A DNA stretch of 64,000 nt from a virus: positions 1 to 64,000 of IMG/VR virus record IMGVR_UViG_3300017991_000003; one strand, given 5' to 3'. How positions within the stretch are numbered: the first letter of the stretch is position 1; each line of letters begins with the position of its first letter. Of the stretch, positions 11,232 to 55,804 are shown one piece after another. Under the pieces are notes generated by a model. It worked only from the letters and a program-made list of their open reading frames with translations, made no database searches and was not told the DNA's origin. The position numbers and the translations under genes were made by a program.

Positions 11232-11611
11232 TGGGCGCCAAGGGCAGTGGGCGTACACGCATCGAAGCGGACCTGATGCCTCGGGTCCGTGAGGGCTTTG
11301 CACGTCGTCTCCAAGACATGGGGACGATGAGCAAGCTCGGCGCCATCCTGCTCAAGCCCAACCAAGGGACACAGCGCCGCATCCGGCGTGAGACCCTCAA
11401 TATGGACACGGTCGGTGATCAGAAGCGTTGGCAGATGCTGCACAACGACTCCGAGCGCTATGAGGTCATCACGGCCAAGGACAGCAACACCAACCGCGGT
11501 AACTACTGCCACGTGACCTACATCGAGAAGGGTGACGACCTCCCCCTCGTCAAGAGCGAGAGCGAGCTCCGTTCTGAGGATAAAGAGCGCATCAAAGAGG
11601 AGGGCGGCTGA
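11231..11611 (+). CDS. hypothetical protein
   Basis: 126 aa ORF; ATGA-type overlaps at both ends. Confidence 0.5.
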   Translation: MGAKGSGRTRIEADLMPRVREGFARRLQDMGTMSKLGAILLKPNQGTQRRIRRETLNMDTVGDQKRWQMLHNDSERYEVITAKDSNTNRGNYCHVTYIEKGDDLPLVKSESELRSEDKERIKEEGG

Positions 11612-23135: not shown

Positions 23136-24218
23136 ATGGCCGGCTCCACGGGGCCGTACTCGCGTTCTCAACTCTGCCGCAAGTACGGGATCACTGACAG
23201 GACCCTGAGGGCCCTCGAGGATCGAGGGACTCTTGTGCTCACGTGGTACCCCCGCAACGGGCTCATGGTCACCGACCTTGAGTCGAATGACCAAAAGCGC
23301 ATTCTGGCGATGGCGCGCAATCACGTCATGTCATTTGGGAGGGCGCAGGGGATTCCCCGGCTGCCCTTCCTGCGCTTCCTGTTCCTTCGTTTTATCCAGG
23401 TCCCGGTGGAGGATCTGTACGCGGAGCTTCTGGACAGGAACATGATTGCGGCCCGTAGCTTCAAGCTCCCTCAGCTGAAGAAGATGCACAAGGCCTTTGT
23501 GGAGGCGGTCCCGCGCCCGCTTCAGAAGAAGGTACGGGCGCATGCCGAGGCCTCGACCGCCACGGAGAAGAAGCAGCTTGACGTGCTGCTCAAGGTCTGC
23601 GGCATCTACGAGGCCTACCACAACCCACAGCAGGAGCAGAGCTTCAAGTACCTGTCGGATCCTGAGATCAAACTAGGCATCGACATGGGTTTGAGCTCTC
23701 GCGCCAAACTGCCTGAGATTGCTGACTTCATCGCAGACGTGGCGGGCTTCTCGATCAACCTCGAGGCGCTCCTGTTCTACCACGTCCTCTACCACGACAT
23801 CAGCTTCCTGGACAACGACGAGATCCAGGCCTACCTGAAGGGCCTGAAGCCGTCGCATCGGGACCTCCTAGGTAAAGCCGTCGGCTCCACGATCCCCGAG
23901 CTCCGCATGGCTCTCGGCTTCGTCGAGGACATGTCGATCGAGGACACCGTGGTCCAGCTTCGGAACGCGGTCCTAACCAAGACCTCGGCGACCCTGCTTG
24001 CCCCCGGCTCCCAAGAGAACACCCGAGAGTTCAGCGCTCTCTTGCGCAACTTCGCCTACTTGGTCGATCGCTCGAATATCGAGGGTACCGGCAAAGGAGG
24101 GGCCGCCGCGTCTATGCCCGACGTGTTCAGCCAGTTCGAGATGAAGATCTCGCAGATGGATGGGGCTGGCTTGTTTCGGCTCCCCTCCGCCGAAGGAGAA
24201 GAACTGAACCATGGATGA
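23136..24218 (+). CDS. hypothetical protein (360 aa)
   Basis: ORF ends overlapping the terminase start. Confidence 0.55.
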   Translation: MAGSTGPYSRSQLCRKYGITDRTLRALEDRGTLVLTWYPRNGLMVTDLESNDQKRILAMARNHVMSFGRAQGIPRLPFLRFLFLRFIQVPVEDLYAELLDRNMIAARSFKLPQLKKMHKAFVEAVPRPLQKKVRAHAEASTATEKKQLDVLLKVCGIYEAYHNPQQEQSFKYLSDPEIKLGIDMGLSSRAKLPEIADFIADVAGFSINLEALLFYHVLYHDISFLDNDEIQAYLKGLKPSHRDLLGKAVGSTIPELRMALGFVEDMSIEDTVVQLRNAVLTKTSATLLAPGSQENTREFSALLRNFAYLVDRSNIEGTGKGGAAASMPDVFSQFEMKISQMDGAGLFRLPSAEGEELNHG

Positions 24219-26040
24219 TGCCACGTTCGGGGGTACGCCGCTCTCCTCGAGCAATGTGGAGCTCCTTGAGGATCTGCACGAGCTCTTCCGAGATAACGAC
24301 GACATCACTGACGAGCAGTGGGAGGAGCTAGACTGGTTCGCCTACAACCAGGAAGCTGAAGAGGCCGCAGAGGAGTCTGCGGACCGGGCTGATCCGATCA
24401 ACCCGCCTCCGGGCCTTGCTGAGGGCCTGGCTCACGGCGGCGTCATTATGGCCACCATCTCGGATATGGTGGAGAACCTCCTGACGGTCGACCAGGAGCC
24501 TTTCAGCTTCGTCGGACGGGAGTACCTGAAGGGGCTGTACGACCCGGTAGAAGAGTACCCGGAGGGGTGCCGTAACCAGATCTGGATCGCCGGCCGTCAG
24601 GTCGAGAAGTCAACCACCCAGAGCGCCAAGTCCGTGGCCTTGGGGGCGCTGACCAAGAGCTACAAGACCCTGTACGTGGCGCCCCGCTTCGACCAGGTCC
24701 GGGTCTTCAGCCAGCAGCGCTTCAAGCCCATGTGCGAGGACAGCCCGAACCTCGCCCCGTGGATCAAGCCCAGCCGGACGCTGTGGCAGGTCTCCGCCCG
24801 AGAGTTCATGAACGGGGCGTTCTACAACTTCCGGAGCTGTTACCTGAGCGCCGACAACGCTCGAGGCATTACCTGCCACCACCTCAACGTCGACGAGATC
24901 CAGGACATCGTCTCTGATGCTATCCCTGTTCTGGAGGAGTGCCAAAGCCACGCTACGGCCGAACTGCGGTTCCGCTCCTATGCCGGGACGCCCAAGACGA
25001 CCTCCAATGTCCTGAGCCGGCGGTACGAGAACAGCTGCCAGTTCGAGTGGTTGAGTCAGTGCGCGGCGTGCAACCACTGGAACTTCATGGACGAGCGGAT
25101 CGTGGGCGACGACTTCTTCGCCTGCGTCCGGTGCGGCAAGGAGATCAACCCCAAGGTGGGGCAGTTCGTGCCTAAGCGCCCCGAGCTCCTCGACAAGTGC
25201 TGGGGGTTCCGAATCAGTCAGCTGATGGTCCCGTTCCAGAGTCACGCGGACATCATCGCCAAGCGGGACGACCCTAACTACAGCCGCCAGAAGTACTTCA
25301 ACGAGTGCTTGGGTCTGCCATACGACGAGGGCCAGCTGGTCCTGACCGAGGCTGTGATGCGGGACGCCTGCGACGCGGATCGAGGGATGTGGACGATCCA
25401 ACAGTGCCGCGAGCTGGCCGACCGCGGCGTGCCGCTCTTCGGCGGGGTCGATTACGGGCCGGGTGAGGGTGAGGATCCTTCTTACACAGTGCTGACTATC
25501 GGCTGGTGGGCGACCGCCGGCCACTTCGAAGTCCTCTGGATGCGCAGACTGGTTGGCGATGAGTCGAACCTGGCCCTCCAGACCAAGGTCATCAACCAGT
25601 ACTTCACCGAGGCCCGTGTCCGCTGGATGGGGGCTGACTGGGGGTTCGGTGCTGCTATCAACAAGCAGCTGATCCACGAGCACGGCTGGCACCGCGTGGC
25701 TCATCAGCGTTGCCTGCTCGAGTTCCAGTACGGCGGCCAGAAGCAGATGGCTTCCTGGAACGCCAAGGCGGAGCGGTACATCATCGACCGCAACCAGGGC
25801 ATGGAGAAGCTGATCGACTCGATCCGCACCAATCAGGTCCGATTCTTCCGAATGGAGGAGATGTCCCAGTTCGTTGACGACTTCACGACTATCTACGTGG
25901 AGTTCGATGAGCGGCGGAACACCCGGAAGTACGACCACGACCTGCCGGACGATGCTTTCCACTCGGTCAACTACGCCTACATGGCGGGCCTCCAGCACCG
26001 GAATAAGCTGGTCCCGAGCTGGCTGACTCCGCTGGATTGA
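24211..26040 (+). CDS. terminase large subunit (ATPase + RNaseH-like nuclease) with inserted Zn-ribbon
   Basis: Deviant Walker A IAGRQVEKST, Walker B-like HHLNVDEIQD, C-terminal GVDYGPGEGEDPSYTVLTIGW acidic nuclease-type motif; CAACNHW...CVRCGK ribbon. Confidence 0.55.
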   Translation: MDDATFGGTPLSSSNVELLEDLHELFRDNDDITDEQWEELDWFAYNQEAEEAAEESADRADPINPPPGLAEGLAHGGVIMATISDMVENLLTVDQEPFSFVGREYLKGLYDPVEEYPEGCRNQIWIAGRQVEKSTTQSAKSVALGALTKSYKTLYVAPRFDQVRVFSQQRFKPMCEDSPNLAPWIKPSRTLWQVSAREFMNGAFYNFRSCYLSADNARGITCHHLNVDEIQDIVSDAIPVLEECQSHATAELRFRSYAGTPKTTSNVLSRRYENSCQFEWLSQCAACNHWNFMDERIVGDDFFACVRCGKEINPKVGQFVPKRPELLDKCWGFRISQLMVPFQSHADIIAKRDDPNYSRQKYFNECLGLPYDEGQLVLTEAVMRDACDADRGMWTIQQCRELADRGVPLFGGVDYGPGEGEDPSYTVLTIGWWATAGHFEVLWMRRLVGDESNLALQTKVINQYFTEARVRWMGADWGFGAAINKQLIHEHGWHRVAHQRCLLEFQYGGQKQMASWNAKAERYIIDRNQGMEKLIDSIRTNQVRFFRMEEMSQFVDDFTTIYVEFDERRNTRKYDHDLPDDAFHSVNYAYMAGLQHRNKLVPSWLTPLD

Positions 26041-26115
26041 GTTGCTCCTTGACCGCAGCAACTTAGGATTGGCTAATAGGTTGCGCTCCTTGGACGCAGT
26101 CTCGTACCATTTCAC

Positions 26116-26137
26116 TGGCACTGGCTCCCAGTGTCAG
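26116..26137. promoter_or_regulatory. 22-nt conserved element TGGCACTGGCTCCCAGTGTCAG (copy 1)
   Basis: 20 nt upstream of the 26157 start; preceded by ATTT and hairpin-like repeats as in copy 2. Confidence 0.4.
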
Positions 26138-42991: not shown

Positions 42992-43108
42992 ATGAACCTA
43001 ACAGCGGCGCTGATGCTCGGTGCCCTAGTGCTGGGGGTGGCTATCGTTCTCTTGGACGATCGCCGCTCCCAGCGGCGTAAACGGGCCAAAAGGAATAGGC
43101 GGAGCTAA
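42992..43108 (+). CDS. small membrane peptide (38 aa; hydrophobic helix + Arg/Lys tail)
   Basis: ATG 42992, TAA 43106; MNLTAALMLGALVLGVAIVLLDDRRSQRRKRAKRNRRS; below the ORF-track length cutoff. Confidence 0.3.
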   Translation: MNLTAALMLGALVLGVAIVLLDDRRSQRRKRAKRNRRS

Positions 43109-43142
43109 AAAGAAGGAGAAGGGGGCTGCCGCTCCCTTCTCC
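43105..43142 (-). terminator. rho-independent terminator for the - strand block
   Basis: Perfect 9-bp stem GGAGAAGGG/CCCTTCTCC (43115..43123 / 43134..43142), extendable to about 12 bp; on the - strand it is followed by TTCTTTTT (complement of 43105..43114). Confidence 0.6.
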
Positions 43143-43174
43143 GTGCTCACCGAGGGCTTCTCGATAAGGGGCCG

Positions 43175-43908: not shown

Positions 43909-44132
43909 TGCGCCCTCCTGGGCCAGTGCTGGCGGCAGAGCCGCTCAGCGTAGGCCTCAAGGGCCGCGGCCCGGTTGGCCTCGGCCGTGGCGATGCCCTC
44001 GGCCAGCTCCTCGCTGAGACCCTTGGCGGTCTCGACGTCGAGCTGGTCCTGCCGGGCCAGGAACGCCGTCACCGAGGTGACGTGTTCCTGAACGGAGGGG
44101 TGCTGGACCACACCGAGGCGTGGCACCCTCAC
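43905..44132 (-). CDS. hypothetical small protein
   Basis: GTG at 44132..44130 overlapping the upstream stop (GTGA); the longer track ORF to 44312 overlaps the membrane-protein gene. Confidence 0.3.
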   Translation of the reverse strand: MRVPRLGVVQHPSVQEHVTSVTAFLARQDQLDVETAKGLSEELAEGIATAEANRAAALEAYAERLCRQHWPRRAQ

Positions 44133-44554
44133 CGGGTCACCTCGTCGATGTAGTCCTTGATGGGCTTGTCCATCTCGATGGCGGCCTTCATGGCCGCCCA
44201 GATTTTGTCCGCATCCGCAAGCCGAAGGACCACACAGGTCCCGTAGATCGCGATGACGCTGAGCATCAGCGCGGCGGAGCCGACCACGGCGCTCGTAGTC
44301 CACCACATCCACGTGGGAAGCGGCAGGATCGTCAGGTCGTACACGCCGGCGACGACCACGATCGTGTAGACCGCGACCAGGGTCGCCACGATGGCGTACG
44401 CGGAGCGGTTGAGGTCCTTGAGGACCCCGGCGTGCATCAGCACGATGCTGATCACGCAGGTCGCCGACACGACCAGACCCGTGTTGGGGCCCAGTCCGAA
44501 GAAGGCGACGACGGCCCAGAACAGGCCGTACAGGGTGTTGAAGGTGCGCGACAT
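44129..44554 (-). CDS. small integral membrane protein
   Basis: Four hydrophobic segments; ATG at 44554..44552 preceded by GGAGG (track start 44620 also possible). Confidence 0.55.
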   Translation of the reverse strand: MSRTFNTLYGLFWAVVAFFGLGPNTGLVVSATCVISIVLMHAGVLKDLNRSAYAIVATLVAVYTIVVVAGVYDLTILPLPTWMWWTTSAVVGSAALMLSVIAIYGTCVVLRLADADKIWAAMKAAIEMDKPIKDYIDEVTR

Positions 44555-44703
44555 GGTCGGCCTCCAGTGTTGGGGTGATGATGGTGCCGGGGTAGACATT
44601 CCCCGGATCACTAAACTCATGCCCGAACCCTCGCTTGTTCTGGCGCTTTTGGGTACCTACACTTCTTGTCGATGATGAGTCGGCGCCTCTGCGGGGCGGC
44701 TTC

Positions 44704-44736
44704 TTTCATGGGCAGGGCCTCGACGCAGCGGCAGCG
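44704..44736 (+). terminator. long GC hairpin followed by ATTTT on + strand; orientation and function unresolved
   Basis: AGGGCCTCGACGC-AGCGGCA-GCGTCGGGGCCCT, about 13 bp with one G-U; sits between sigma-factor stop and membrane-protein start. Confidence 0.35.
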
Positions 44737-44753
44737 TCGGGGCCCTATTTTGT

Positions 44754-44775
44754 GGCACTGGCTCCCAGTGTCAGA
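44754..44775. promoter_or_regulatory. 22-nt conserved element TGGCACTGGCTCCCAGTGTCAG (copy 2), palindromic core ACTGG-N3-CCAGT
   Basis: Exact duplicate of 26116..26137; overlaps sigma-factor stop codon. Confidence 0.4.
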
Positions 44776-45619
44776 GATTGGGATCGATGTCCTCGAGCAG
44801 CACCCACAGCTCTCGAAGCCCCTCGTTCTCGATCTGCCTCACACGCTCCCGAGTCCGCCGGTAGAAGCGTGCGAGCTCCCCATAGGGGGTCGGGTTCTCG
44901 TGCCCGAACCCGTAGTGCCGGCGGATGATGTCCTCAGCCTCCGGCTTCAGCTGCGCCAGGGCCCAGTTCAAGAGGTCCCGGTTCTCCTGATTGATGACCC
45001 GATCGAGCATCGCCGGGGCCGGTCCTAGCTGAACCCCCTGCGCTGTGTCCTGGGTGAGCCGGCCGCACGCCTCGGTGATCTCGGTGTCCAGGGTCACCAA
45101 CCGACTATCCCGAGCGTGCCTGTACTTCCGGATCTTGTCCGGGTCCCAGCCGAGCTCCTCGAAGATCTCCTCCTCGTCCGGGTAGTAGCCGTTGGTCTTC
45201 AACATCCGGTACGCCTTGGTCTGGTAGTCGGTGACCAGGGACCGGTGGCGAATAGGCTTGGCTGAGAGGTTGCGGTACTCCCGACGGACCTCGGCGTCGA
45301 TCCACCAGACGGCGTAGGTACTGAACTTGACGTGGCTCTTCGTGCCCTTGACGACCCGGTCAAGGTCGAAATCCCTGAGCGCCTTCATAAGCCCCACGAA
45401 CCCCGCGGAGATCATGTCGTGATAGCGCGCGTCCTTGGCCTCGACGAAGCGCTGCACTCGTCGGATTACCAGGCGGACATTGTGTTCGACCAGCCGCTGA
45501 GCTGCGGCATCATCCCCCTCGCGTAGCGCTTTGACGAGCAGCTCGCGTTCTTCCTCCTTCGACAGGACTGGGTGATCAGCTGCCTTGTGTAGGGCGATCT
45601 CGTCGAAGGACCAGTCCAC
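44771..45619 (-). CDS. sigma-70-family RNA polymerase sigma factor
   Basis: Region 2: LVEHNVRLVIRRVQRF...GFVGLMKALRDFD...KFSTYAVWWI; region 4 helix-turn-helix: NPTPYGELARFYRRTRERVRQIENEGLREL. Confidence 0.75.
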   Translation of the reverse strand: MDWSFDEIALHKAADHPVLSKEEERELLVKALREGDDAAAQRLVEHNVRLVIRRVQRFVEAKDARYHDMISAGFVGLMKALRDFDLDRVVKGTKSHVKFSTYAVWWIDAEVRREYRNLSAKPIRHRSLVTDYQTKAYRMLKTNGYYPDEEEIFEELGWDPDKIRKYRHARDSRLVTLDTEITEACGRLTQDTAQGVQLGPAPAMLDRVINQENRDLLNWALAQLKPEAEDIIRRHYGFGHENPTPYGELARFYRRTRERVRQIENEGLRELWVLLEDIDPNL

Positions 45620-47208: not shown

Positions 47209-47609
47209 TCACGCCCCCCGGCTCCTCGGCCGCGGTTACGGATGGCCCGCTGAATGGCCTCTCGCCGGCTCGGCGGGATCTTGTGCAGGGGGAGCTCGAC
47301 CGGAGCTTCGGGGACCTTCTGGAAGGGCAGGTCACCGAAGATCTTGATCAGGGATCCAAGAACGTCTTGAGCATTCATCGTGTCGAGACGCCCATCGACC
47401 ATGGAGATCGGCAGCTCGAAGGTCATCGGCTGATCGAACGGGGTCAAGTAGTGCATTCGGAGCCCCATGTGCTCCTCATCACCTTCGGGGGCGATGTTCG
47501 TCACGTGACACCAGATGAACCAGCCGGTCACGTGGATACCGGAGGCGCCGAATCGAATGTCCTTGGAGCTGAAGGTCCAGAAAGGCTTAGGAGCGTTGGG
47601 GTTATCCAT
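47205..47609 (-). CDS. hypothetical protein (134 aa)
   Basis: ATGA overlap with RuvC-like gene. Confidence 0.5.
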   Translation of the reverse strand: MDNPNAPKPFWTFSSKDIRFGASGIHVTGWFIWCHVTNIAPEGDEEHMGLRMHYLTPFDQPMTFELPISMVDGRLDTMNAQDVLGSLIKIFGDLPFQKVPEAPVELPLHKIPPSRREAIQRAIRNRGRGAGGRE

Positions 47610-47611
47610 AG

Positions 47612-47654
47612 CTAAAAGAGAGGAAGGGGCGAGGCCGGCACCCCGAAGGGCGCC
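47612..47654 (-). terminator. terminator-like hairpin plus U-tract on - strand
   Basis: GGCaCCC-CGAA-GGGcGCC stem (47636..47654), then TCTCTTTTAGC on - strand; shares AGCTAAAAG with the 43105 terminator. Confidence 0.4.
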
Positions 47655-47668
47655 GACCTCTGGGGGAC

Positions 47669-49387
47669 TCAGATGATCGCGTTCCAGTCGACGATGACAC
47701 CGGCCTCGTCGAGCAAGTCGTAGAACCAGGTCACGACGTGGACGTAAGCACCTAGCGGGTCCTTGGGGTGGCGCTTCTGGGCCTCCTCGCGCTTGGCACC
47801 GAACTCGTCGGTCTTGGCCAGCTTGTGCTTCTTGCAGGTCTGGCCGAGCAGGCTGAGCAGGGCACGCTGCTGAGTGGAGTTGAGCTTCGAGTAGTCAGGG
47901 CGCACGTTCTCGTCGAACGGCTCCTCTTCTTCCTCTTCTTCCTCTTCCTCCTCCTCGCCAGGCTCCTCCTCGTCCTCCTCCTCAAGATCGTCGAGCTCCT
48001 CATCGCTGGGCTCTTCTTCGTCGAGGTCCTCCTCGTCGAGCTCCTCGTCTTCTTCCTCGTCAGGCTCCTCCTCGTCGAGGTCCTCGTCTTCTTCCTCCTC
48101 CTCGTCGAGGTCCTCCTCGTCGTCTAGCTCCTCCTCGAGCTCTTCTTCTTCGAGCTCCTCGAGCTCCTCGAGCTCCTCCTCTTCTTCCTCCACATCAGGG
48201 GCGGAGGCAGCAACCGGAGCCTCCCGCTTGCCGATCATGTCGTCAGGCGGGATAGGGGTGTGAAGAGGGCCGGAGACAGCGATAGGGAACGCGCGGATCG
48301 TGTCCTCGGGAACGCCGAGCGTATCCGCGGCCTCCGCGAGGCTGGTGGCCAGCACGTAGCGCAGCGTGTCGGAGCCGTCCTCGTCTTGGCTGTAGGCCTG
48401 GTACACGGCATGGACCGACGGGAGCCCGATATGCTCTTGCATGTAGTTGGGGTCACCATCGGGCGCGACGAAGACAGCGCTGACGCCCGGGCAGCAACGC
48501 TCAGCCGCTTCTTTGAGGCGCATCAGGCCCACGGCCCGCCACGCATCGTCAGCGCCTTCGGTCAGGTGCGAGGACGCGGCCACGAGGGCCTCGATCATCA
48601 CATCACCGTCGGTCGGCCAGCGGTCAGAGTCGTCAGTACCGGACGCGGCCCGCTTGAGCAGCTCCTGGTAGGAGTAGTAGAGGTCCAGCTGCGGCTGGGT
48701 GAGTCGGAGCTTGAGCTCGCGGTACTTGGCCTCGCCGGGCTCGAGCCCCTCGTCCTCCTCGTCGTTCATGTCCTGGATCGCCTGCTGCACCCGGCGCTTG
48801 AGGTCTGCGGAGCGCAGCGCGTGCGGGTGACCCAGGGGCTCGCAGAAGGGCAGCCACTCGGAGATGTTGTCCTCGTGGATAGCGCCGGCGCGGACGCCCG
48901 GGCTCAGCTCGACAAGCCGGTCCCAGACCACGTGGCGCAGGACGGCGGGGTTCAGGCTCAGCGACAGCAGCATGGCCCACTGGCCTGCTAGCTGGTTGGC
49001 CTTGGCCGGGTTCATGTTGAGCCGCATGTCCGCGACCTGCTCGAAGCTCTCGGCGGCCGGCAGATCACCGACAGGAGCCGCGACCTCGATCCACGCACCT
49101 TCTCGCAGGTTGAACAGGTGGCAGGCCAGCTCAGCAGTCTGAGCGCCTCGGGCCTGCTGGAGCTCGACACACCGGTCCAGACGCTTGATCGCCGGGAGCT
49201 TGCCGGTGCCGGCGAAGGGGGCTCGCTGCCCCTGTAGGAGGTTCTGGGTTGCGTACTCGGCGCGCTCTTGAGCCTCTTCGAGGGCCACCAGTGCGGCGTT
49301 CTCGGAGCCCGGCTGCGGTTGGGTAGTCGGCGCAGCAGCCGCTTTCTTCTTCGTGGCCTTCTTGGCGGCCTTCTTTTTCTTAGCCAT
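47669..49387 (-). CDS. protein with Lys-rich N-terminal tail and ~100-residue poly-acidic (E/D/L) C-terminal tract
   Basis: ATG at 49387 (MAKKKKAAKKATKKKAAAA); acidic tract encoded at about 47910..48195. Confidence 0.6.
   Translation of the reverse strand: MAKKKKAAKKATKKKAAAAPTTQPQPGSENAALVALEEAQERAEYATQNLLQGQRAPFAGTGKLPAIKRLDRCVELQQARGAQTAELACHLFNLREGAWIEVAAPVGDLPAAESFEQVADMRLNMNPAKANQLAGQWAMLLSLSLNPAVLRHVVWDRLVELSPGVRAGAIHEDNISEWLPFCEPLGHPHALRSADLKRRVQQAIQDMNDEEDEGLEPGEAKYRELKLRLTQPQLDLYYSYQELLKRAASGTDDSDRWPTDGDVMIEALVAASSHLTEGADDAWRAVGLMRLKEAAERCCPGVSAVFVAPDGDPNYMQEHIGLPSVHAVYQAYSQDEDGSDTLRYVLATSLAEAADTLGVPEDTIRAFPIAVSGPLHTPIPPDDMIGKREAPVAASAPDVEEEEEELEELEELEEEELEEELDDEEDLDEEEEEDEDLDEEEPDEEEDEELDEEDLDEEEPSDEELDDLEEEDEEEPGEEEEEEEEEEEEPFDENVRPDYSKLNSTQQRALLSLLGQTCKKHKLAKTDEFGAKREEAQKRHPKDPLGAYVHVVTWFYDLLDEAGVIVDWNAII
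47910..48195. repeat. GAG/CTC-type low-complexity coding repeat (poly-Glu/Asp/Leu)
   Basis: Repeated CCTCGTCGAGGTCCTC units on + strand. Confidence 0.7.
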
Positions 49388-50429
49388 GGGCGGGGGTCTT
49401 CTTCTTCTTGGTTCTTTTGTAGGGGAAGCAGTCAAGGCGGTTGCGGCATCGCTTGGCCTTGGCGGTGTTGCGGCTAGAGCAGGCCTTCGGGCCAGCTAGG
49501 GGCTGTCCAAGCTCTACGAGGCGATGGACAGAGTCGATGTAGGGGTCGACGACCATGGGCAGGAAGTCGGGGTCATAGGCGATCTCGTAGGCCCGGTCGG
49601 CAAGTCGGTCCCTGTCAAGATATAGCAACGAAGTGCCCTCACAGAGGTCAGGATCTAGCGGAAAGATTCCTTGACGCCCCTGCTCGACCAAGATGGCCGG
49701 GTAGAGCTTGCCTTGGTAGGTGTCCTTCTCCAGAGGGAGCGGGCCCTGCCGGGGCTTGAGCACGAAGGTTCCGGGCTCTTTGCCCCGGACGCGCGACATA
49801 CTGTCGAACTGGTCCCGCTCCTTGCTCTTCATCTCCAGCACTCGCCAGTGCCCGGTGGGCTTGATCCAGATACCGTCAGCACGGCCGCGGATCATCCACG
49901 CGTCACCGCGATTCTTGGGGTCGGGCCGACGAATGCGGATCTCCTCGTAGCGCCATCTGACACGCTCCCGGGCTAGGACCCGATCGCAGTTGTTCTCGTG
50001 GACTACCCCATCCGCATCACGGTAGGCGACGGTGTTGGTGCACACCTCCTCGGGCCTGAACCCTTCGACGACCTGGTGACAGCTCATACACCTCCACAGG
50101 CCCCAGAGGCGCCCGACGTCGCCTGTGATCTCAGGTAGGATCACGGACTGGAAGTGGTCATGAACAGCGTGCCCAGCTGCGAACAAGCGTAGCGCCTGGG
50201 GACTAAAGCCCTGAGCGTCGCCCCACATATCGTGGAGGCGCTTGAAAGCGTCTTGGACCATACACCCGTTGCAGAGGCTGCTTGGGTTGAAGGCTCTGGA
50301 GACATACCCCTCACGCTCTTCTCGACGGAGAAGCGCCTGGTCGATGGCCGGCGTCCAAGACTGATCGGCCTCGACCCTCGTCGTCATCTTGCAGATGAAG
50401 TCGACGATGTCTTGTGTGAAGGTGTTCAC
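49380..50429 (-). CDS. putative PD-(D/E)xK nuclease with Cys cluster
   Basis: GRADGIWI...WRVLEMKSK (D...E-x-K); CNGC and CMSC upstream. Confidence 0.35.
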   Translation of the reverse strand: MNTFTQDIVDFICKMTTRVEADQSWTPAIDQALLRREEREGYVSRAFNPSSLCNGCMVQDAFKRLHDMWGDAQGFSPQALRLFAAGHAVHDHFQSVILPEITGDVGRLWGLWRCMSCHQVVEGFRPEEVCTNTVAYRDADGVVHENNCDRVLARERVRWRYEEIRIRRPDPKNRGDAWMIRGRADGIWIKPTGHWRVLEMKSKERDQFDSMSRVRGKEPGTFVLKPRQGPLPLEKDTYQGKLYPAILVEQGRQGIFPLDPDLCEGTSLLYLDRDRLADRAYEIAYDPDFLPMVVDPYIDSVHRLVELGQPLAGPKACSSRNTAKAKRCRNRLDCFPYKRTKKKKTPAHG

Positions 50430-51395: not shown

Positions 51396-51952
51396 CAGGT
51401 GGTCTGGGCGATTACGCGTTGGAGAAGGGAGCCATGAGTCACGACCAGCTCGTGCTTGGCGGTCAGGGGATCCAGCTTGGCCTTGAAGGTCAAGCCAAGG
51501 GACCCGAGCATCCCAGTGCGCTGTCGCTCCAAGTCCTCTTGGATGACCTCTACGGGGATGCGGGTCTCCTTGGTGGTGATGTCGAAGTACCGAAACGGCC
51601 CGTCAACGAACTGCTCGAGCTCCTCAGTCATGGGCATGATCAGGAGATCAGCGGGGAAACCCTCAAACACGCGATACGTGTTGTGGTCCGTGAAGTGGTA
51701 GGCGAGGGCGATGTTCGGGCGCGCTAGCTTGCGCGCGTCTTGCACCGCCTTCTCCCACCACCGAGGCTGGAACCGGAAGTCGGTCCCTGTTCTCGACTTG
51801 GCCTCGACAAACCACCCGTAAGGGGTGCCGAGGTCTCCTCGGAAGAACGAGCCGCAGCCAGATCCGGGGACCCGCTGCAAGCCGGTCTCTCGCATCAGGC
51901 GAAGCTCGTGCGCGTCACCCGTCCTCTTGTTCGAGGCCGGCCTCGAGCGCAT
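51395..51952 (-). CDS. hypothetical protein, possible PD-(D/E)xK-type nuclease
   Basis: GDLGTPYGWFVEAKSR motif; start uncertain (51952 or 51895; track ORF to 52075 overlaps RecA-like gene). Confidence 0.3.
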   Translation of the reverse strand: MRSRPASNKRTGDAHELRLMRETGLQRVPGSGCGSFFRGDLGTPYGWFVEAKSRTGTDFRFQPRWWEKAVQDARKLARPNIALAYHFTDHNTYRVFEGFPADLLIMPMTEELEQFVDGPFRYFDITTKETRIPVEVIQEDLERQRTGMLGSLGLTFKAKLDPLTAKHELVVTHGSLLQRVIAQTT

Positions 51953-53525
51953 CGAGGGGGTCACCTCCCTCTGCTTCTTCTGAATCTTCGGCAGCCCCAG
52001 CGGCTGGCTGATGTCCTTTGAGTCGGTCATGGGCTTCGTGAATGAGATCCTGGAGAGGGTCGTCGAAAGGCCCATAGAGATGGGCCTCTGCGTCGAGGTG
52101 GCCTCGGAAGGTCCGCGGCATGATTGCGGCAGCCAGCGGATAGCGCAGGCGATAACCGATGTCGGGCCGGCTCAGGAAGGCCTTGATGTCCGCGATCTTG
52201 GTGAAGGTGCGGCCGAGGATCTCATACCCCCGCGAGGTCTTCTTGAACCACCTGTCATCAGGCGGCAGCTCCCAAGCGCCCTCAGATAGGGCTTTCAGGA
52301 GCTCAAACACGCGCGCACCCTCGTCGGTCTCGCCGGCTTCGTAGTGGACACGGTCAAACAGACGATCCTTGAGGAACAGCCGAGCCTGGGCGCTAGCGTT
52401 GGTGCCGCCCCCGGACGCCTTGTCCTTCTTCATCGTCATCGTCATCTCCGCCATGGCGGCGGGCTCACGGTAGCCGCCGTCCCACGGGTTGTAGCGGGTG
52501 CGGATCTCCATGTTCTGCATGAGCGCGTACTTGAGGGCGTTACCGCCCGACGCGATCTTGGAGGGACCGCCGTAGCCCCCGGGGCCCGACTGGATGTTGG
52601 CGCGCCACTGGTTGGTCTGGATGAACGTGGGCATCACGCCCGACTGGTTCCAGGCCTCGTTTTGCGCGCTGATCAGCTTCGGGTACAGGCGGGACAGCTC
52701 ACGAGCCCGGGACGCGGTCTGCTTACGACCCGCCAGGTCCTCGTCAATCGCAGCCATGGCCACACTGTCGAGGATGATCAGATCGGCAGCGCCGTTCTTG
52801 ATCAGGTGGGAAGAGAGGATCTCGACCTGGTTCAAGGACGTGATGCGGGCCACAGCTACTGTCGAATCCGGGCTGATGAGTAGGCCCTCTTCGACCTCCT
52901 CGTACTCAGCCATCGGATCGCTCATGTCCACACGATCCGCGATCTTGAACCCCCAGGACTGTGCCCATAGCGGGTCGAAGTCACCCTCGACATCGATGAA
53001 GAGGACGGTCGACACATCGTTGGCACCGCAGCCGCAGCGGATCACGTTATCCCGCTCACCCAGGTCATCATGGAAGGTGAGGATCGGAGTCATGCAGCGC
53101 CGGCAAGTGCGCTGGAAGGAGCCGGCCAGTAGGTAGCACATGAGCGACTTGCCCACATGCTCCGGGCCAATGATCTGCGTCCGGGTGCCGATGGCCATGC
53201 GGATGTTCATGTCCATCTCGACCAGTCCCGTGAACAGGAGCCGGCGGCGGAACTCAGCTGCGGCCTGCGTCGCTCGCCAAGAACCCGTGGGCTGCTTGTT
53301 GAGCTCGACTGTCGCAGACTTCATCCCGTCGCTGAACCGAGCGCTGGTGCGTGTGTCGCGCGGGCTCTTCACTCCGGCCGTCAGCGCCCGCTTCGGAGCG
53401 TCGTCCTTGGCTGCGGCCTTCTTGGTCCGCTTCTTGGCCTTCTTCTTGGTCGCCTTCTTCTTGGTGGCCTTCTTGGTCACCTTCTTTGTGGCTTTTTTGG
53501 CGACCTTCTTCTTCTTGGCCGCCAT
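51915..53525 (-). CDS. RecA/UvsX-family recombinase with Lys-rich N-tail and Cys-cluster insertion
   Basis: KKKKVAKKATKK tail; Walker A GPEHVGKS; LIILDSVAMAAIDEDL (cf. RecA IVVDSVAAL); CRRC...CGC; acidic C-terminus. Confidence 0.5.
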   Translation of the reverse strand: MAAKKKKVAKKATKKVTKKATKKKATKKKAKKRTKKAAAKDDAPKRALTAGVKSPRDTRTSARFSDGMKSATVELNKQPTGSWRATQAAAEFRRRLLFTGLVEMDMNIRMAIGTRTQIIGPEHVGKSLMCYLLAGSFQRTCRRCMTPILTFHDDLGERDNVIRCGCGANDVSTVLFIDVEGDFDPLWAQSWGFKIADRVDMSDPMAEYEEVEEGLLISPDSTVAVARITSLNQVEILSSHLIKNGAADLIILDSVAMAAIDEDLAGRKQTASRARELSRLYPKLISAQNEAWNQSGVMPTFIQTNQWRANIQSGPGGYGGPSKIASGGNALKYALMQNMEIRTRYNPWDGGYREPAAMAEMTMTMKKDKASGGGTNASAQARLFLKDRLFDRVHYEAGETDEGARVFELLKALSEGAWELPPDDRWFKKTSRGYEILGRTFTKIADIKAFLSRPDIGYRLRYPLAAAIMPRTFRGHLDAEAHLYGPFDDPLQDLIHEAHDRLKGHQPAAGAAEDSEEAEGGDPLDALEAGLEQEDG

Positions 53526-53953: not shown

Positions 53954-55379
53954 CCTTGTAGGAGGCTAGCCGGCGGCGCCCGAGCGCGGCCAGAACGGGG
54001 GAGTTGGTGTGGACCGGGTCCACCACGATCGGGACCGGCTTCCCGTCGACCTCTCGCTCGATACGCCCTCGGGTCTGGCGAACATCACGACGGGGAGAGG
54101 CGAGTACAGCGGCATCCTTCCATGGTACATCAAGGGCCTTGTCAGCAATGCCGTAAGTGCAGAAGGTGACCGGCTTGTCGAGGGAGGCGTCCCGGCCGAC
54201 GCGCCCAACCTTGGCATGCTTACCGAAGAACAACCCGCTCGAGCCCGGATGCCGGGCTTCCCATAGCTCGTGCAGGTGGATGAGCTGCTTCTGGAACTGG
54301 CCGAATACCATGACCTGACGCCCCTTTTGGAACAGGTGGCCGACGATGTTAACCAACCAGGCTGAGTACGCAGGGTCAGCGATGACCGTCTGAATGTAGG
54401 CCGTGTAGTTGTGCTTGTCCTTCCAGGCGACGTCCGGGGGAGTCACCATCGGGTTGAGCGGGGGCCGGCCCGGGCAGCTAGTGGGAAAGCCGGCGAAGTC
54501 CGGGCACTCACGGCATCCTGCGAGTGTTGTCATCCCGACCTTCGCCTTGCACCACGCCATCCGGTAGTCGTCGTACTCGACGAGGGTCGTAACTGGGTAG
54601 CGGTAGATCGTGGCAGGGACCAGCTTGGCCGCGGCTTCGACCACGTGGTTACCCAGCGCCGCCTTGAACACCCACTCGAGCCCATCCCGGCGATCCGGGG
54701 TGGCGGTCAGGGCGATGCTCCAGGTGAAGGCTAGGTTCGTGAGGCTGCCGAAAAAGCAAGGTGCTGAGAACACATGCGCCTCGTCGACGAGGAGCATGTC
54801 GAGTTCCATCGGGTCTTCGGCCCACTCTTGTCGCCAGAGGCTCTGACCGACCATGATCGTGAACCGAGCTCGCGTGTCTCGACGCATCTGCCCGTGGCCT
54901 CCGCCGAGGATCTCGACGGTGGCCTCGGGCAGGAAGCGCTCGATCGCACCTTTCCACTGCTCGGCGATGTCGACCTGATCGACCAGCACGCCGACCCGCG
55001 CCGCTTGCAACGCGTCAGCGCAGTAGAGGCCCATGACTGTCTTGCCAGTGCCGCAATCAGCCCGCAGAAGCAGCCCCTCCTTGCGAGGCAGCTCATGTAG
55101 GATCTCACTGACCGGCGTCTTCTGGTTGTCTCTCAGCTCGCCCTTGAACTGCCGCTGTGGGTGCTCTTGGATCGGAGCCCGAGCCGGCAGCGCTCGGGTG
55201 AAGTTCTCTAGCCAGAAGCGAGGTACAAGCAGGGAGCCGTCACTGAACTCATGCCACAACGGGAAGGGCTCTCGATCTCCTTCAGGGCGCGCGATAAGGT
55301 CTTGGTCCCGATCAAAGGGCCACAAGGCAGGATCGCCGAGGATCTCGGCAGGGACGTGGACGAGGCCGCGTAGTTTCAT
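53916..55379 (-). CDS. superfamily-2 DEAH-box helicase
   Basis: Motif I ADCGTGKT, motif II LLVDEAHVF, C-terminal helicase-like region. Confidence 0.65.
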   Translation of the reverse strand: MKLRGLVHVPAEILGDPALWPFDRDQDLIARPEGDREPFPLWHEFSDGSLLVPRFWLENFTRALPARAPIQEHPQRQFKGELRDNQKTPVSEILHELPRKEGLLLRADCGTGKTVMGLYCADALQAARVGVLVDQVDIAEQWKGAIERFLPEATVEILGGGHGQMRRDTRARFTIMVGQSLWRQEWAEDPMELDMLLVDEAHVFSAPCFFGSLTNLAFTWSIALTATPDRRDGLEWVFKAALGNHVVEAAAKLVPATIYRYPVTTLVEYDDYRMAWCKAKVGMTTLAGCRECPDFAGFPTSCPGRPPLNPMVTPPDVAWKDKHNYTAYIQTVIADPAYSAWLVNIVGHLFQKGRQVMVFGQFQKQLIHLHELWEARHPGSSGLFFGKHAKVGRVGRDASLDKPVTFCTYGIADKALDVPWKDAAVLASPRRDVRQTRGRIEREVDGKPVPIVVDPVHTNSPVLAALGRRRLASYKDARCHVIDYPGL

Positions 55380-55396
55380 GGCATTGGTAGGGGGTG

Positions 55397-55804
55397 TCAG
55401 TAAACAGTGGTCAGGATCGGGGTAGCCATCGACAAGTCAAAGACCCAGGTCATCTCCAGGTACCGGTGCTTGGCCATAGGTCTTCCGTGATGGTTGTGCT
55501 GCGCAGGCTTGGTCTGTTCAACAGCCTCCAGAGCCGTTCGGCAAAGCCAGGTATGGAGCCCCTCATTCGTCTCTTCGTCGCGGTGCTTGAGGAACACGTC
55601 AAGGCAGCGGATCGATGCTCGATCCACCGCGTGGGCGGTGACTTCAAGGCTTGTGGCCTGCATCAACATGCCGCGCCGCTTCAGTTCTTCAGCAGCGTCT
55701 TTCGCTTGATCGTGCTCTACACGCACCATCCAGCGCAGGTACCCAGGCGGTACACGTGTGATCGGCTCACCTGTATGTTTTCCGCGTTGCATCACAACCG
55801 CCAT
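55397..55804 (-). CDS. hypothetical protein (135 aa)
   Basis: ORF. Confidence 0.45.
   Translation of the reverse strand: MAVVMQRGKHTGEPITRVPPGYLRWMVRVEHDQAKDAAEELKRRGMLMQATSLEVTAHAVDRASIRCLDVFLKHRDEETNEGLHTWLCRTALEAVEQTKPAQHNHHGRPMAKHRYLEMTWVFDLSMATPILTTVY

What the first reader, a model, noticed from the sequence alone, without database searches (positions are those of the whole stretch)
44704..44775. Strong hairpin plus the 22-mer overlapping the sigma-factor stop, oriented on the opposite strand
A ~13-bp GC stem (44704..44736) is followed on the + strand by ATTTT and then the 22-mer, which overlaps the sigma stop codon (44771..44773). If the 22-mer is a rightward promoter as at 26116, transcription would run antisense into the sigma gene; alternatively the palindromic element works in either orientation as an operator for the downstream membrane-protein gene.
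Basis: inference. Interest (0 to 1): 0.5.

Follow-up and report, generated by a model that had tools for sequence, protein, structure and literature searches.

The report
Dispersed phage dyad beside a terminator hairpin
The 22-mer at the end of the sigma-factor gene is one copy of a 21-bp palindromic site that recurs about eleven times in this uncultivated large phage and changes its sequence from one phage lineage to the next, which suggests a binding site for a phage-specific factor, while the neighbouring hairpin looks like an ordinary transcription terminator pointing the opposite way from the sigma gene.

Summary
The stem is 44714..44746 (13 bp, 7-nt loop), followed by ATTTTG and then the 22-mer at 44753..44774, which overlaps the sigma stop codon.

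The 22-mer is a near-palindrome, TGGCACTGG-CTC-CCAGTGTCA. The pattern TGRCAY-N9-RTGYCA occurs 11 times in 99 kb of this phage, against under 0.1 expected. Six copies sit at gene boundaries and five are intragenic.

Three related phage lineages (sigma 57-59% identical) carry their own version of the dyad (TGGTAC.., TGATAG.., mixed). It occupies the same three places in each: just after sigma, just before a helicase gene, and 20-21 nt before the gene after the large terminase.

I read the dyad as the recognition site of a lineage-specific factor, most probably a dimeric DNA-binding protein acting as an operator or roadblock. No such protein was found. It is not a rightward sigma-70-type or sigma-54-type promoter.

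The hairpin is conserved through compensatory changes and carries its U-tract on the + strand. It is a terminator for rightward transcription, possibly of an ~80-nt RNA from a conserved TTGTTC-17-TACACT promoter at 44635..44663. On the minus strand, a separate family-wide promoter-like module (GGCATGAGTTT in this window; consensus GGCATGAGTCT) precedes the membrane-protein gene. The function remains inferred.

The parts
44753..44773 (.). 21-bp dyad, copy S3 (the 22-mer is 44753..44774): TGGCACTGG-CTC-CCAGTGTCA. Positions 3 and 19 form G:T on the + strand and A:C on the minus strand. The TGA of the sigma gene is dyad positions 19-21 read on the minus strand.
44714..44746 (+). GC-rich stem-loop (13 bp, 7-nt loop) followed by ATTTTG at 44747..44752. 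It looks like an intrinsic terminator for rightward (+) transcription.
   Evidence: It is kept by compensatory changes in L004 and L010.
44684..44698 (+). Small hairpin CGCCTCTGCGGGGCG inside the putative short + strand transcript.
44635..44663 (+). Candidate sigma-70-like promoter TTGTTC-17-TACACT, with a predicted start near 44670, about 80 nt before the terminator's T-run.
   Evidence: TTG-N3-N17-TACAYT is kept in all four lineages at the same distance from the dyad. This is an inference with no transcript data.
44556..44665 (-). Conserved ~100-nt promoter/leader module for the membrane-protein gene. Core GGCATGAGTTT at 44613..44623, hairpin CCGGGG..CCCCGG, then a GGAGG ribosome-binding site before the ATG at 44555.
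44771..45619 (-). Sigma-70-family factor gene (282 aa; regions 2, 3 and 4).
44129..44555 (-). Small hydrophobic (membrane-like) protein gene downstream of the region. The ATG at 44555 is preceded by GGAGG.
   Evidence: The start codon was chosen by reading the sequence.
26116..26136 (.). Dyad copy S2, identical to S3. It lies 75 nt after the TerL stop and 20 nt before the ATG at 26157.
26081..26110 (+). Candidate sigma-70-like promoter TTGCGC-18-TACCAT, ending 5 nt before dyad S2.
   Evidence: It is kept in L013 (TTGTGC-17-TACCCT) and L014 (TTGTGC-17-TACACT), but not clearly in L015.
55379..55399 (.). Dyad copy S4 (TGGCATTGGTAGGGGGTGTCA on +). It fills the whole gap between the stop of the 135-aa ORF and the ATG of the ResIII-type helicase gene.
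62206..62226 (.). Dyad copy S5 (TGGCACTCCTTCGCAGTGTCA), inside the 121-aa ORF 62076..62441.
4445..4465 (.). Intragenic match to the dyad pattern (TGGCACCGGTGGGCAATGTCA), inside the 1724-aa ORF.
36031..36051 (.). Intragenic match (TGACACTGGACGACGGTGTCA), encoding the conserved RLTLDDGVN. No dyad is present at this spot in relatives.
7757..7777 (.). Weaker intragenic match with one mismatch to the half-site pattern (TGGCAGCGGTAGCCAGTGCCA).

Best explanation
The interval is a boundary between transcription units in a large uncultivated phage. It holds two separate elements.

(1) The 22-mer is one copy of a dispersed 21-bp dyad, TGRCAY-N9-RTGYCA, ancestrally 9-bp arms around a 3-bp centre. I propose that a lineage-specific factor reads it as double-stranded DNA. 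The factor is most probably a dimeric DNA-binding protein encoded by the phage. Bound at gene boundaries, it would act as an operator or roadblock that gates transcription: across the sigma-to-membrane-gene junction, into the helicase/replication genes, and at about +1..+21 of a sigma-70-like promoter for the head genes after the large terminase.

(2) The GC hairpin at 44714..44746 plus ATTTTG is a rho-independent terminator for rightward (+) transcription. It probably ends an ~80-nt transcript from the conserved promoter TTGTTC-17-TACACT at 44635..44663. That promoter lies back-to-back with the leftward GGCATGAGTTT promoter-like module of the membrane-protein gene. The terminator would keep rightward transcription from running antisense into the sigma gene.

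Shown: the anatomy, the copy number, the syntenic conservation, and the lineage-specific half-sites. Inferred: protein binding, the roadblock effect, and the promoter and transcript.
For: Family and significance. There are 2 exact 22-mers with 0 expected. There are 7 matches at two mismatches or fewer against 0.65 expected. There are 11 exact matches to the half-site pattern in 99 kb against 0.04-0.09 expected.

Syntenic conservation with lineage-specific sequence.
- After sigma: window TGACACTGGGAGCCAGTGCCA, L004 TGGTACTAGATACCAGTACCA, L010 TGATAGTGGGGCCCACTATCA, L007 degenerate.
- Before the helicase gene, each phage has its own version.
- 20-21 nt before the gene after TerL, again each phage's own version.

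Double-stranded DNA reading. At the helicase sites of three of four lineages the inner stem is not complementary, and only the outer 6-nt half-sites are kept. L010-type sites are perfect palindromes, so orientation carries no information. Five copies lie inside long ORFs, where a terminator would be harmful.

The dyad varies between lineages, whereas the nearby GGCATGAGTCT motif is constant across the family. The two are therefore read by different factors.

Precedent. Cluster A mycobacteriophage stoperators are dispersed repressor sites, mostly not promoter-associated, at which the repressor blocks elongation, with lineage-specific motifs (PMC6550527).

Hairpin. It is the strongest terminator-like site in 40-50 kb on the + strand. 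The + strand fold is about 10 kcal/mol better than the minus strand fold. Its stems in L004 and L010 differ in sequence but remain paired, and L010 has TTTTT on the same side.

Promoter. TTGNNN-17-TACAYT is kept in four lineages at a constant distance from the dyad. TTGNNN-16..18-TANNNT is rare in the window (11 observed against 29 in shuffles), and about half of the hits (5 of 11 labelled intergenic, a sixth ending at a gene start) lie in intergenic DNA.
Against: No DNA-binding regulator was detected among 59 window ORFs with Pfam, PHROGs or NCBIfam, or in PDB sequence searches of four small proteins.

Some copies show changes on both arms that keep the inner stem paired: S6 TCC/GGA against TGG/CCA, L100:1955 CGG/CCG, and S5 C9-G13. 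This hints at selection for a hairpin or cruciform rather than for sequence alone.

Half-sites 15 bp apart centre to centre are unusual for a simple helix-turn-helix dimer.

In the window phage the extended motif is asymmetric: C-TGACAC...GTGCCA-NN-AAAT in four of the six copies compared (S1-S6), and positions 3 and 19 form G:T/A:C in seven of the eight strong copies (S7 has G-C). A purely symmetric operator does not explain this.

The + strand promoter is only 7 of 12 matches to consensus. It overlaps a block that is also conserved as part of the minus-strand module, and its key bases are not kept in the second module copies of L004 and L010. No + strand gene ends at the hairpin.

There are no expression data at all.
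Confidence: 0.4

Rival explanations
1. The dyad is a promoter for a phage-encoded transcription machine, either the 2384-aa fused beta-beta' RNA polymerase or the phage sigma. It would possibly be recognised as an extruded hairpin, as bacteriophage N4 virion RNA polymerase recognises its early promoters. Transcription would start at or just after the 3' edge of the dyad.
For: The phage encodes its own polymerase and a sigma factor.

The copies are long and highly conserved within a genome, and they evolve in concert between lineages, as phage-polymerase promoters do.

Start codons follow several dyads closely: 0-5 nt for the helicase gene in four lineages, 3 nt at S6, 7 nt at S7, and 20-21 nt at the TerL site.

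The element has a 9-bp stem and 3-nt loop. N4 promoters are 5-7-bp stems with a 3-nt loop centred at -11 (PMC4496689).

Some inner-stem changes are compensatory.

In 6 of the 7 strong copies that are asymmetric at positions 3 and 19, the G:T-containing (more stable) hairpin lies on the template strand of the local genes.

Read on the minus strand, the site resembles CTGACA-16-CAAAAT, 9 of 12 matches to consensus.
Against: The element is a perfect palindrome in one lineage, so it carries no direction.

The helicase-site copies cannot form a good hairpin in three of four lineages.

The extended motif at 26116 points away from the downstream gene.

A -10-like hexamer is absent at S1 and S6, and in relatives the -35-like TGACA is replaced by TGGTA.

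Lack of a ribosome-binding site after the dyads is not special. 52% of window genes have a weak site or none.

Five copies are intragenic.

The polymerase here is unrelated to the N4 enzyme.
Confidence: 0.15
2. The dyad acts as an RNA hairpin in the transcript. It would be a U-tract-less terminator or attenuator, a 3'-end stabiliser, or a processing site placed right after stop codons. At the sigma gene it would form a tandem hairpin with the GC stem.
For: Most boundary copies start 0-5 nt after the stop codon of the upstream gene. The sigma sites do so in four lineages (0-1 nt) and the helicase sites in three of four (12 nt in L007), as does S1.

At the sigma site the dyad is followed 6-11 nt later by a second strong hairpin in three lineages.

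The inner stem is paired in most strong copies.
Against: In the sense RNA most window copies carry an A:C mismatch, and the helicase copy has three mismatches in seven pairs.

There is no U-tract on the sense side. This phage's recognisable terminators do have one: 43118..43146 plus UUCUUUUU, and the terminators before the second module copies.

The loop sequence is not conserved. A 9-bp stem is too short for RNase III.

The five intragenic copies would truncate long essential genes.

The two identical 22-mers give different RNAs, because one lies in a + strand unit and the other in a minus-strand unit.
Confidence: 0.15
3. The dyad binds a factor with a non-transcriptional role, for example centromere-like, condensation, replication or recombination sites spread along the genome. 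Alternatively it is a selfish palindromic repeat kept alike by gene conversion.
For: The copies are spaced roughly 4-10 kb apart, with one 21.7-kb gap, regardless of gene orientation, and half of them are intragenic.

The two 22-mers are identical including the asymmetric centre, which suggests recent homogenisation.

The phage encodes UvsX/RecA-like and RuvC-like proteins, which act on recombination intermediates and cruciforms.
Against: The three positions conserved across lineages are all precise gene boundaries.

In about 42 kb of each of two relatives, only those three boundary copies exist.

No ParB, initiator or recombinase gene was detected in the window.
Confidence: 0.15
4. This is the first reader's primary reading: the 22-mer is a rightward sigma-70-type or sigma-54-type promoter that drives antisense RNA into the sigma gene.
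For: Both exact copies lie on the + strand. The left half, TGGCAC, equals the -24 element of sigma-54 promoters (from my own knowledge).
Against: No TTGC or GC element lies at the -12 spacing, and no -10 hexamer is shared after the 22-mer at the two sites.

The + strand scan for TTGNNN-16..18-TANNNT finds promoters upstream of the dyads, not in them.

A terminator directly precedes the element on the + strand.

Relatives replace TGGCAC with TGGTAC or TGATAG, and the partner arm changes in step.
Confidence: 0.04

Closest known systems
Stoperators of Cluster A mycobacteriophages (L5 gp71 and Bxb1 repressor sites)
   Same: They are many copies of one short site dispersed over the whole phage genome. 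Most are not promoter-associated, and a few lie in real promoters. Bound repressor blocks elongating polymerase. The motif differs between related phages and tracks the cognate protein (PMC6550527).
   Different: Stoperators are 13-14 bp without dyad symmetry, are bound by a monomer, number 20-30 per ~50-kb genome, and are oriented with transcription. They belong to temperate phages with an identified repressor. Here the site is a 21-bp dyad, with about 11 copies in 99 kb and no orientation rule. No repressor or integrase was seen, and the phage carries its own RNA polymerase.
Hairpin promoters of bacteriophage N4 virion RNA polymerase
   Same: Both are short inverted repeats with a 3-nt loop, repeated in the genome. 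In N4, conserved stem bases and hairpin formation are both needed, and non-conserved stem positions need only stay paired (PMC4496689).
   Different: N4 has three promoters, all at one genome end and in one orientation, with 5-7-bp stems, read by a T7-like single-subunit enzyme. Here the stem is 9 bp, the copies are dispersed in both gene orientations and inside genes, and the phage polymerase is a fused beta-beta' two-barrel enzyme.
Rho-independent (intrinsic) terminators
   Same: The hairpin at 44714..44746 has a GC-rich 13-bp stem, a 7-nt loop and an immediately following T-run (ATTTTG; TTTTT in L010), like the phage's own terminator at 43118..43146.
   Different: The T-run is short, with four T. 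It lies on the strand opposite to all annotated neighbouring genes, so the transcript it would end is only predicted.
Dyad operators and activator sites of phage regulators (Arc/Mnt 21-bp operators; Mu C and P2 Ogr dyad sites at late promoters)
   Same: These are dyad-symmetric sites of about 20 bp next to phage promoters, read by small oligomeric proteins. This comparison rests on my own knowledge.
   Different: Those sites sit at one or a few promoters at fixed positions. Here the copies are dispersed and partly intragenic, and only one copy (26116) clearly abuts a promoter-like sequence.

Membership tests
Rho-independent terminator (hairpin 44714..44746, + strand) | GC-rich stem of at least 5 bp with a loop of 3-8 nt | tested here: met
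   13 pairs, 10 of them G-C, with a 7-nt loop. The fold is -43 kcal/mol for 81 nt, z = -4.5.
Rho-independent terminator (hairpin 44714..44746, + strand) | U-rich tract directly 3' of the stem on the transcribed strand | tested here: met
   ATTTTGTGG follows on the + strand and passes the scanner's rule of 5 T in 8. L010 has TTTTTGGTTTG, while L004 has only GTTCCG. No T-run exists on the minus strand.
Rho-independent terminator (hairpin 44714..44746, + strand) | Lies at the 3' end of a transcription unit on that strand | tested here: inconclusive
   No + strand gene ends here. There is only a predicted ~80-nt unit from TTGTTC-17-TACACT, or read-through from the + strand operon that lacks a + oriented terminator at 43118..43146.
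Sigma-70-type promoter (22-mer read rightward) | -35-like and -10-like hexamers 16-18 bp apart on the + strand | tested here: not met
   Neither the consensus scan nor the TTGNNN-16..18-TANNNT scan places a + strand promoter in or after the 22-mer. The sequences after the two copies differ.
Sigma-54 promoter | GG at -24 and GC at -12 (TGGCAC-N5-TTGCW) | tested here: not met
   TGGCAC is followed by TGGCT and then CCCA, not TTGC. Relatives change TGGCAC to TGGTAC or TGATAG.
Protein-binding dyad operator | Two inverted half-sites at fixed spacing, conserved among copies within a genome | tested here: met
   TGRCAY-N9-RTGYCA occurs 11 times against under 0.1 expected. At the helicase sites the half-sites are kept while the centre varies.
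Protein-binding dyad operator | Site overlaps or directly follows a promoter | tested here: inconclusive
   This holds for copy 26116 (TTGCGC-18-TACCAT, then 5 nt, then the dyad), kept in two of three relatives. It was not shown for 44753, 55379 or the other copies.
Protein-binding dyad operator | A cognate DNA-binding protein | tested here: not met
   No helix-turn-helix, ribbon-helix-helix or ParB-type family was found among 59 ORFs. Four PDB sequence searches found nothing. Only part of the genome was searched, and many ORFs have no detectable family.
Stoperator system (Cluster A mycobacteriophages) | 13-14-bp asymmetric site oriented with transcription, read by an immunity repressor of a temperate phage | tested here: not met
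   The site here is a 21-bp dyad. Orientation relative to the genes is 5 of 6, not a rule. No repressor or integrase was detected. It resembles stoperators in possible function only.
N4-type hairpin promoter | Hairpin-forming inverted repeat with a 3-nt loop at every copy, upstream of genes and in one orientation | tested here: not met
   The helicase-site copies lack inner pairing in three of four lineages. The copies occur in both orientations and inside ORFs. Recognition by the polymerase cannot be tested with these tools.
Known RNA families (Rfam) | Covariance-model match at the gathering score | tested here: not met
   There is no hit in the window at gathering thresholds. The only hit in 44450..44850 is Scr3202 at 21 bits against a threshold of 52, E = 0.78.

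The most novel reading that the evidence does not exclude
The dyads are cruciform or hairpin promoters, or loading sites, for the phage's giant fused beta-beta' RNA polymerase. The strand whose hairpin carries the G:T wobble would be the template strand. This would be an independent invention of the structure-specific promoter recognition so far known only for the unrelated single-subunit N4 virion polymerase.
Probability: 0.12. Interest if true: 0.85.

Novelty: new variant of a known kind. Interest (0 to 1): 0.5.

Why it matters
The window belongs to an uncultivated clade of large phages. Relatives lie on contigs of up to about 190 kb. The clade combines a 2384-aa fused beta-beta' RNA polymerase, encoded among the virion genes, with a sigma-70-family factor. 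A survey of jumbo phages did not find that pairing in its RNA-polymerase-encoding group (PMC7824862).

In such a phage the cis-elements are the only handle on how three possible transcription machines divide the genome: host polymerase, host polymerase with the phage sigma, and the phage polymerase. This work separates two elements:
- a family-constant promoter-like motif, GGCATGAGTCT in the GC-rich lineages and TGGCATAAGAT in the AT-richer ones;
- a lineage-variable 21-bp dyad at syntenic gene boundaries.

Together they give concrete, testable targets. If the dyad is a roadblock or operator, it extends the stoperator idea to a lytic-looking large phage, with a dimeric site. If it is a hairpin promoter, it would be a second, independent case of structure-specific promoter recognition.

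Tried and rejected
1. Megablast of 43-47 kb against INPHARED phages found no match.
2. Rfam gave no hit at gathering thresholds and one insignificant hit in E-value mode. There are no tRNAs.
3. An exact 22-mer scan of IMG/VR found only the source contig. A single-protein sigma scan found only itself.
4. A metagenome scan with TGRCACTGGNNNCCAGTGYCA returned 80 single hits. None is homologous to this phage, so all are chance.
5. More distant relatives (TerL 57% identical or less; sigma 38-42%) lack the dyad at the orthologous spots, so the element is confined to the closest lineages.
6. I tested whether all copies share one absolute orientation, or one orientation relative to the genes. Either way it is 5 of 6, which is not significant. 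Relatives are symmetric.
7. I tested the argument that genes right after dyads lack a ribosome-binding site and must therefore be leaderless. I rejected it as evidence, because 52% of all window genes score weaker than -4 kcal/mol.
8. I tested reading the dyad on the minus strand as -35 CTGACA plus -10 nnAAAT. The -10 is missing at S1 and S6, and the -35 is not kept in L004.
9. The 36031 copy encodes a conserved peptide and is absent in relatives, although as a group the intragenic copies are far above chance.
10. The search for a cognate regulator with Pfam, PHROGs, NCBIfam and PDB sequence searches found nothing. PHROG searches of genes next to the extra copies also found nothing.
11. The repeat AGTGTAGGTACCCAAAAG is unique in the window and is not a dispersed motif.
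Full report
**What is at the coordinates**

Reading 44400..45000 shows four elements in order on the + strand:
- a stem-loop, AGGGCCTCGACGC-AGCGGCA-GCGTCGGGGCCCT, at 44714..44746;
- ATTTTG at 44747..44752;
- TGGCACTGGCTCCCAGTGTCAG at 44753..44774;
- the TCA at 44771..44773, which is the TGA stop of a minus-strand ORF at 44771..45619.

That ORF is a sigma-70-family factor with Pfam regions 2, 3 and 4 and a match to PHROG 351 at 6e-40.

The consensus scanner lists the stem as a + strand terminator-like site with 13 pairs. The + strand RNA folds to -43 kcal/mol (z = -4.5), against -33.3 kcal/mol for the minus strand. The difference arises because both the stem and the 22-mer have a G:U pair on the + strand where the minus strand has A:C.

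**The 22-mer is a dyad, and one of a family**

The sequence reads TGGCACTGG-CTC-CCAGTGTCA, with 9-nt arms. The exact 22-mer occurs twice, at 26116 and 44753, both on the + strand, with none expected.

A third copy at 62206 keeps only the outer arms. The arms-only pattern gives 7 matches at two mismatches or fewer, against 0.65 expected.

The window is part of IMG/VR contig 3300018080_003942. It starts about 16.6 kb to the left of that contig. I fetched about 35 kb more of the same phage and found further copies:
- L100:8291, intergenic, 5 nt after a stop codon;
- L100:1955, intragenic;
- L099:2745, 3 nt before a start codon;
- L102:5143, a perfect palindrome 7 nt before the start of a 684-aa gene;
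- L103:5736, intragenic.

In all, TGRCAY-N9-RTGYCA occurs 11 times in 99 kb, against 0.04-0.09 in composition-preserving shuffles. Six copies are at gene boundaries and five are inside ORFs.

**The genome context**

The window is a phage with 63% G+C and no near match among sequenced phages.
- Plus-strand genes run from 119 to 43108. They include a lambda-gpA-type large terminase at 24211..26040. They also include a 2384-aa protein whose relatives match the Pfam Rpb2 and Rpb1 domains, which makes it a fused beta-beta' RNA polymerase.
- Minus-strand genes run from 43175 to beyond 64000. They encode helicases, a UvsX/RecA-like protein, RuvC-like proteins, a thymidylate kinase, an exonuclease and the sigma factor.
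- The two blocks converge at about 43.1 kb. There a hairpin followed by UUCUUUUU forms a normal terminator for the minus strand only.

**Comparative evidence**

The sigma protein has homologues at 57-59% identity in three other lineages, with conserved gene order.

Directly after each sigma stop codon there is a 21-nt dyad, but with lineage-specific arms. Written in the sigma sense direction:
- window: TGACACTGGGAGCCAGTGCCA;
- L004: TGGTACTAGATACCAGTACCA;
- L010: TGATAGTGGGGCCCACTATCA, a perfect palindrome;
- L007: a degenerate TTGCATCGGTGACCTGTGCCG.

Each phage has a second copy of its own version filling the gap between a 135-137-aa gene and the ResIII helicase gene.

Each phage also has a third copy 20-21 nt before the start of the gene that follows the large terminase:
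- window: TGGCACTGGCTCCCAGTGTCA;
- L013: TGGTACTGGTTACAGGTACCA;
- L015: TGATAGTGGAACCCACTATCA;
- L014: TGGCACCCCATACCGGTACCA.

So three positions are conserved across four lineages. Within a genome the copies resemble one another, while orthologous copies differ between genomes by changes on both arms. This concerted evolution implies a trans-acting reader whose specificity changes with the lineage.

More distant relatives (TerL 57% identical or less, sigma 38-42%) do not have the element at these spots.

**Double-stranded site or hairpin?**

Evidence for reading as double-stranded DNA by a dimer:
- At the helicase sites of the window, L004 and L007, positions 7-9 and 13-15 are not complementary and only the outer six-base half-sites are kept. 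These copies cannot fold well, yet their position is conserved.
- L010-type copies are perfect palindromes, so they carry no direction.
- Five copies lie inside long ORFs, where a terminator would be harmful.

Evidence for a structural component:
- Several copies keep the inner stem paired with different bases: TCC/GGA at L099:2745, CGG/CCG at L100:1955, and C9-G13 at 62206.
- In the window phage, positions 3 and 19 form G:T/A:C rather than a Watson-Crick pair in seven of the eight strong copies (L102:5143 has G-C).
- Four of the six copies compared (S1-S6) share an asymmetric extension, C-TGACAC...GTGCCA-NN-AAAT.

Orientation follows neither the genome nor the genes strictly, at 5 of 6 either way.

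I therefore rank a dimeric DNA-binding factor first. A hairpin or cruciform role remains a serious rival.

**Is the dyad a promoter?**

Read rightward, it is not. No -10 follows on the + strand, the flanks of the two exact copies differ, and the sigma-54 spacing does not fit.

At 26116, a sigma-70-like pair lies just upstream: TTGCGC-18-TACCAT, ending 5 nt before the dyad. It is kept in L013 as TTGTGC-17-TACCCT and in L014 as TTGTGC-17-TACACT. This places the dyad at about +1..+21, the classical position of a repressing operator.

Read leftward, the site resembles CTGACA-16-CAAAAT. However, the -10 part is missing at two copies, and the -35 part is not kept in L004.

Start codons do sit 0-7 nt after several dyads without a ribosome-binding site, which would suit leaderless messages. 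I tested that argument, and it is weak. Half of all genes in the window lack a good ribosome-binding site.

**A separate, family-constant promoter-like motif**

The ~150 nt between the hairpin and the membrane-protein gene are strongly conserved. Their core is GGCATGAGTTT at 44613..44623 on the minus strand, 57 nt before the ATG at 44555.

The same motif, usually GGCATGAGTCT, recurs elsewhere:
- four times in L004, each 55-65 nt before a small gene;
- twice in L010;
- at L099:330;
- at a divergent junction in L102, again 57 nt before the leftward gene.

AT-richer relatives carry TGGCATAAGAT or TGGCATAAGACT in the same kinds of places.

This motif does not change between lineages, whereas the dyad does. 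Different factors must therefore read the two. The membrane-protein gene thus has its own likely promoter, so the dyad is not simply its operator.

**The hairpin**

Its stem differs in sequence but stays paired in L004 (AGGCCCCCGACA/TGTCGGGGGCCT) and in L010 (GGAACCCCGAGGAC/GTCTTCGGGGTTCC). Its T-run is on the window's + strand: ATTTTG here, TTTTT in L010, and weak in L004. It matches the style of this phage's other terminators. I therefore read it as a terminator for rightward transcription.

Two sources of rightward transcripts are possible:
- read-through from the + strand virion-gene operon, which has no + oriented terminator at the convergence point;
- a local promoter. TTGTTC-17-TACACT at 44635..44663 is kept as TTGATC, TTGTAA or TTGTAG, then 17 nt, then TACACT or TACATT, in all four lineages. 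It lies at a constant distance from the dyad and would give an ~80-nt RNA.

The pattern TTGNNN-16..18-TANNNT is rare in the window, at 11 observed against 29 in shuffles. About half of the hits (5 of 11 labelled intergenic, a sixth ending at a gene start) lie in the few per cent of DNA that is intergenic.

There is a caveat. The promoter overlaps the upstream part of the minus-strand module, and its key bases are not kept in the second module copies. I put its reality at about even odds.

**Who reads the dyad?**

This is unknown. Pfam, PHROGs and NCBIfam scans of 59 window ORFs found the following, but no recognisable DNA-binding regulator:
- an HNH/NUMOD4 endonuclease;
- a RuvC-like protein;
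- a PAAR protein;
- a HAD domain;
- weaker PHROG matches to phosphoheptose isomerase and polynucleotide kinase.

PDB sequence searches of four small conserved proteins were empty. Roughly half of the genome was not examined.

**Comparison with known systems**

- The closest functional analogue is the stoperator system of Cluster A mycobacteriophages (PMC6550527). Its sites are dispersed, mostly not promoter-associated and lineage-specific, and they block elongation. However, they are short, asymmetric, read by a monomer, and belong to temperate phages.
- N4 virion-polymerase promoters (PMC4496689) share the 3-nt-loop hairpin. They differ in number, placement and enzyme.
- The hairpin at 44714..44746 is an ordinary intrinsic terminator in form.

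**Verdict**

The rightward-promoter reading is not supported. The operator-like reading is the best available, but it is unproven at about 0.4. The main rivals are a phage-polymerase hairpin promoter (0.15), an RNA hairpin (0.15) and a non-transcriptional binding site or selfish repeat (0.15).

Noticed in passing
window 11611..18765 (+), together with 44771..45619 (-): A 2384-aa ORF among the virion genes is a fused beta-beta' RNA polymerase. It matches phiKZ-type RNA polymerase PHROGs, and its relatives match Pfam Rpb2_3/6 and Rpb1_1/2/3/5. The same phage also encodes a sigma-70-family factor. A jumbo-phage survey reported no sigma factor in its RNA-polymerase-encoding group (PMC7824862).
   Followed up: partly
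window 44556..44665 (-); L004 10993, 11558, 12137, 12499; L010 10992, 11921; L099 330; L102 3458 (-); L097 10853, 11606; L098 10823; L019 20699 (-): A promoter-like motif is constant across the family: GGCATGAGTCT, or TGGCATAAGAT/ACT in AT-richer relatives. It usually lies 55-65 nt before the start codons of small genes. It sits within a ~100-nt module whose hairpin shows covariation (GGTG..CACC against GATG..CATC). It matches no Rfam family and is a candidate target of the phage sigma.
   Followed up: partly
window 44635..44752 (+): A possible ~80-nt rightward small RNA runs from TTGTTC-17-TACACT to the terminator. Its body is not conserved in relatives. The only Rfam hit is Scr3202 at 21 bits (E = 0.78), which is not significant.
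   Followed up: partly
window 42992..43146: An unlisted 38-codon ORF (MNLTAALMLGALVLGVAIVLL...) ends the + strand block. It is followed by a hairpin at 43118..43146 that has a U-run (UUCUUUUU) only for the minus strand. Rightward transcription therefore has no canonical terminator at the convergence point.
   Followed up: partly
window 26041..26115, with L013, L014, L015 and L018: The spacer after the large terminase is conserved at the nucleotide level (GTTGC..GCAAC hairpin; GATTGGnTAATrGG), even in a relative with 57% TerL identity. L014 and L017 carry a tandem duplication of about 95 nt spanning the TerL 3' end and this spacer.
   Followed up: no
window 47900..48200 (ORF 47669..49435, -) and 53376..53516 (ORF 51915..53525, -): Long low-complexity coding repeats occur here. 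One is an acidic Glu/Asp-rich tract. The other is a Lys/Ala-rich basic tract at the N-terminal end of the UvsX/RecA-like protein.
   Followed up: no
window 31720..31762 (+) and 47609..47651 (-): Two intergenic regions share a hairpin with a TTCG loop (GCCCTTCGGGGC), followed by a C/T-rich tail (CCCCTTCC..CTTT). These look like this phage's usual terminators, placed before highly expressed genes.
   Followed up: no
whole window (71 ORF starts): Only about 35% of genes have a strong Shine-Dalgarno match, and about 52% have a weak one or none. The host may rely little on Shine-Dalgarno pairing, or many start codons are misplaced.
   Followed up: partly
window, one of the 59 ORFs in alignment A4 (not resolved which): The scans also detected an HNH/NUMOD4 homing-type endonuclease, a PAAR-domain protein and a HAD (Swiss-army-knife RNA repair type) domain protein.
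   Followed up: no
L102 3393..3527: This is a divergent junction of the same phage, outside the window. It carries the GGCATGAGTCC motif pointing left. Overlapping it is a one-mismatch dyad-like sequence, TGGCTCACAGGACTCATGCCA.
   Followed up: no
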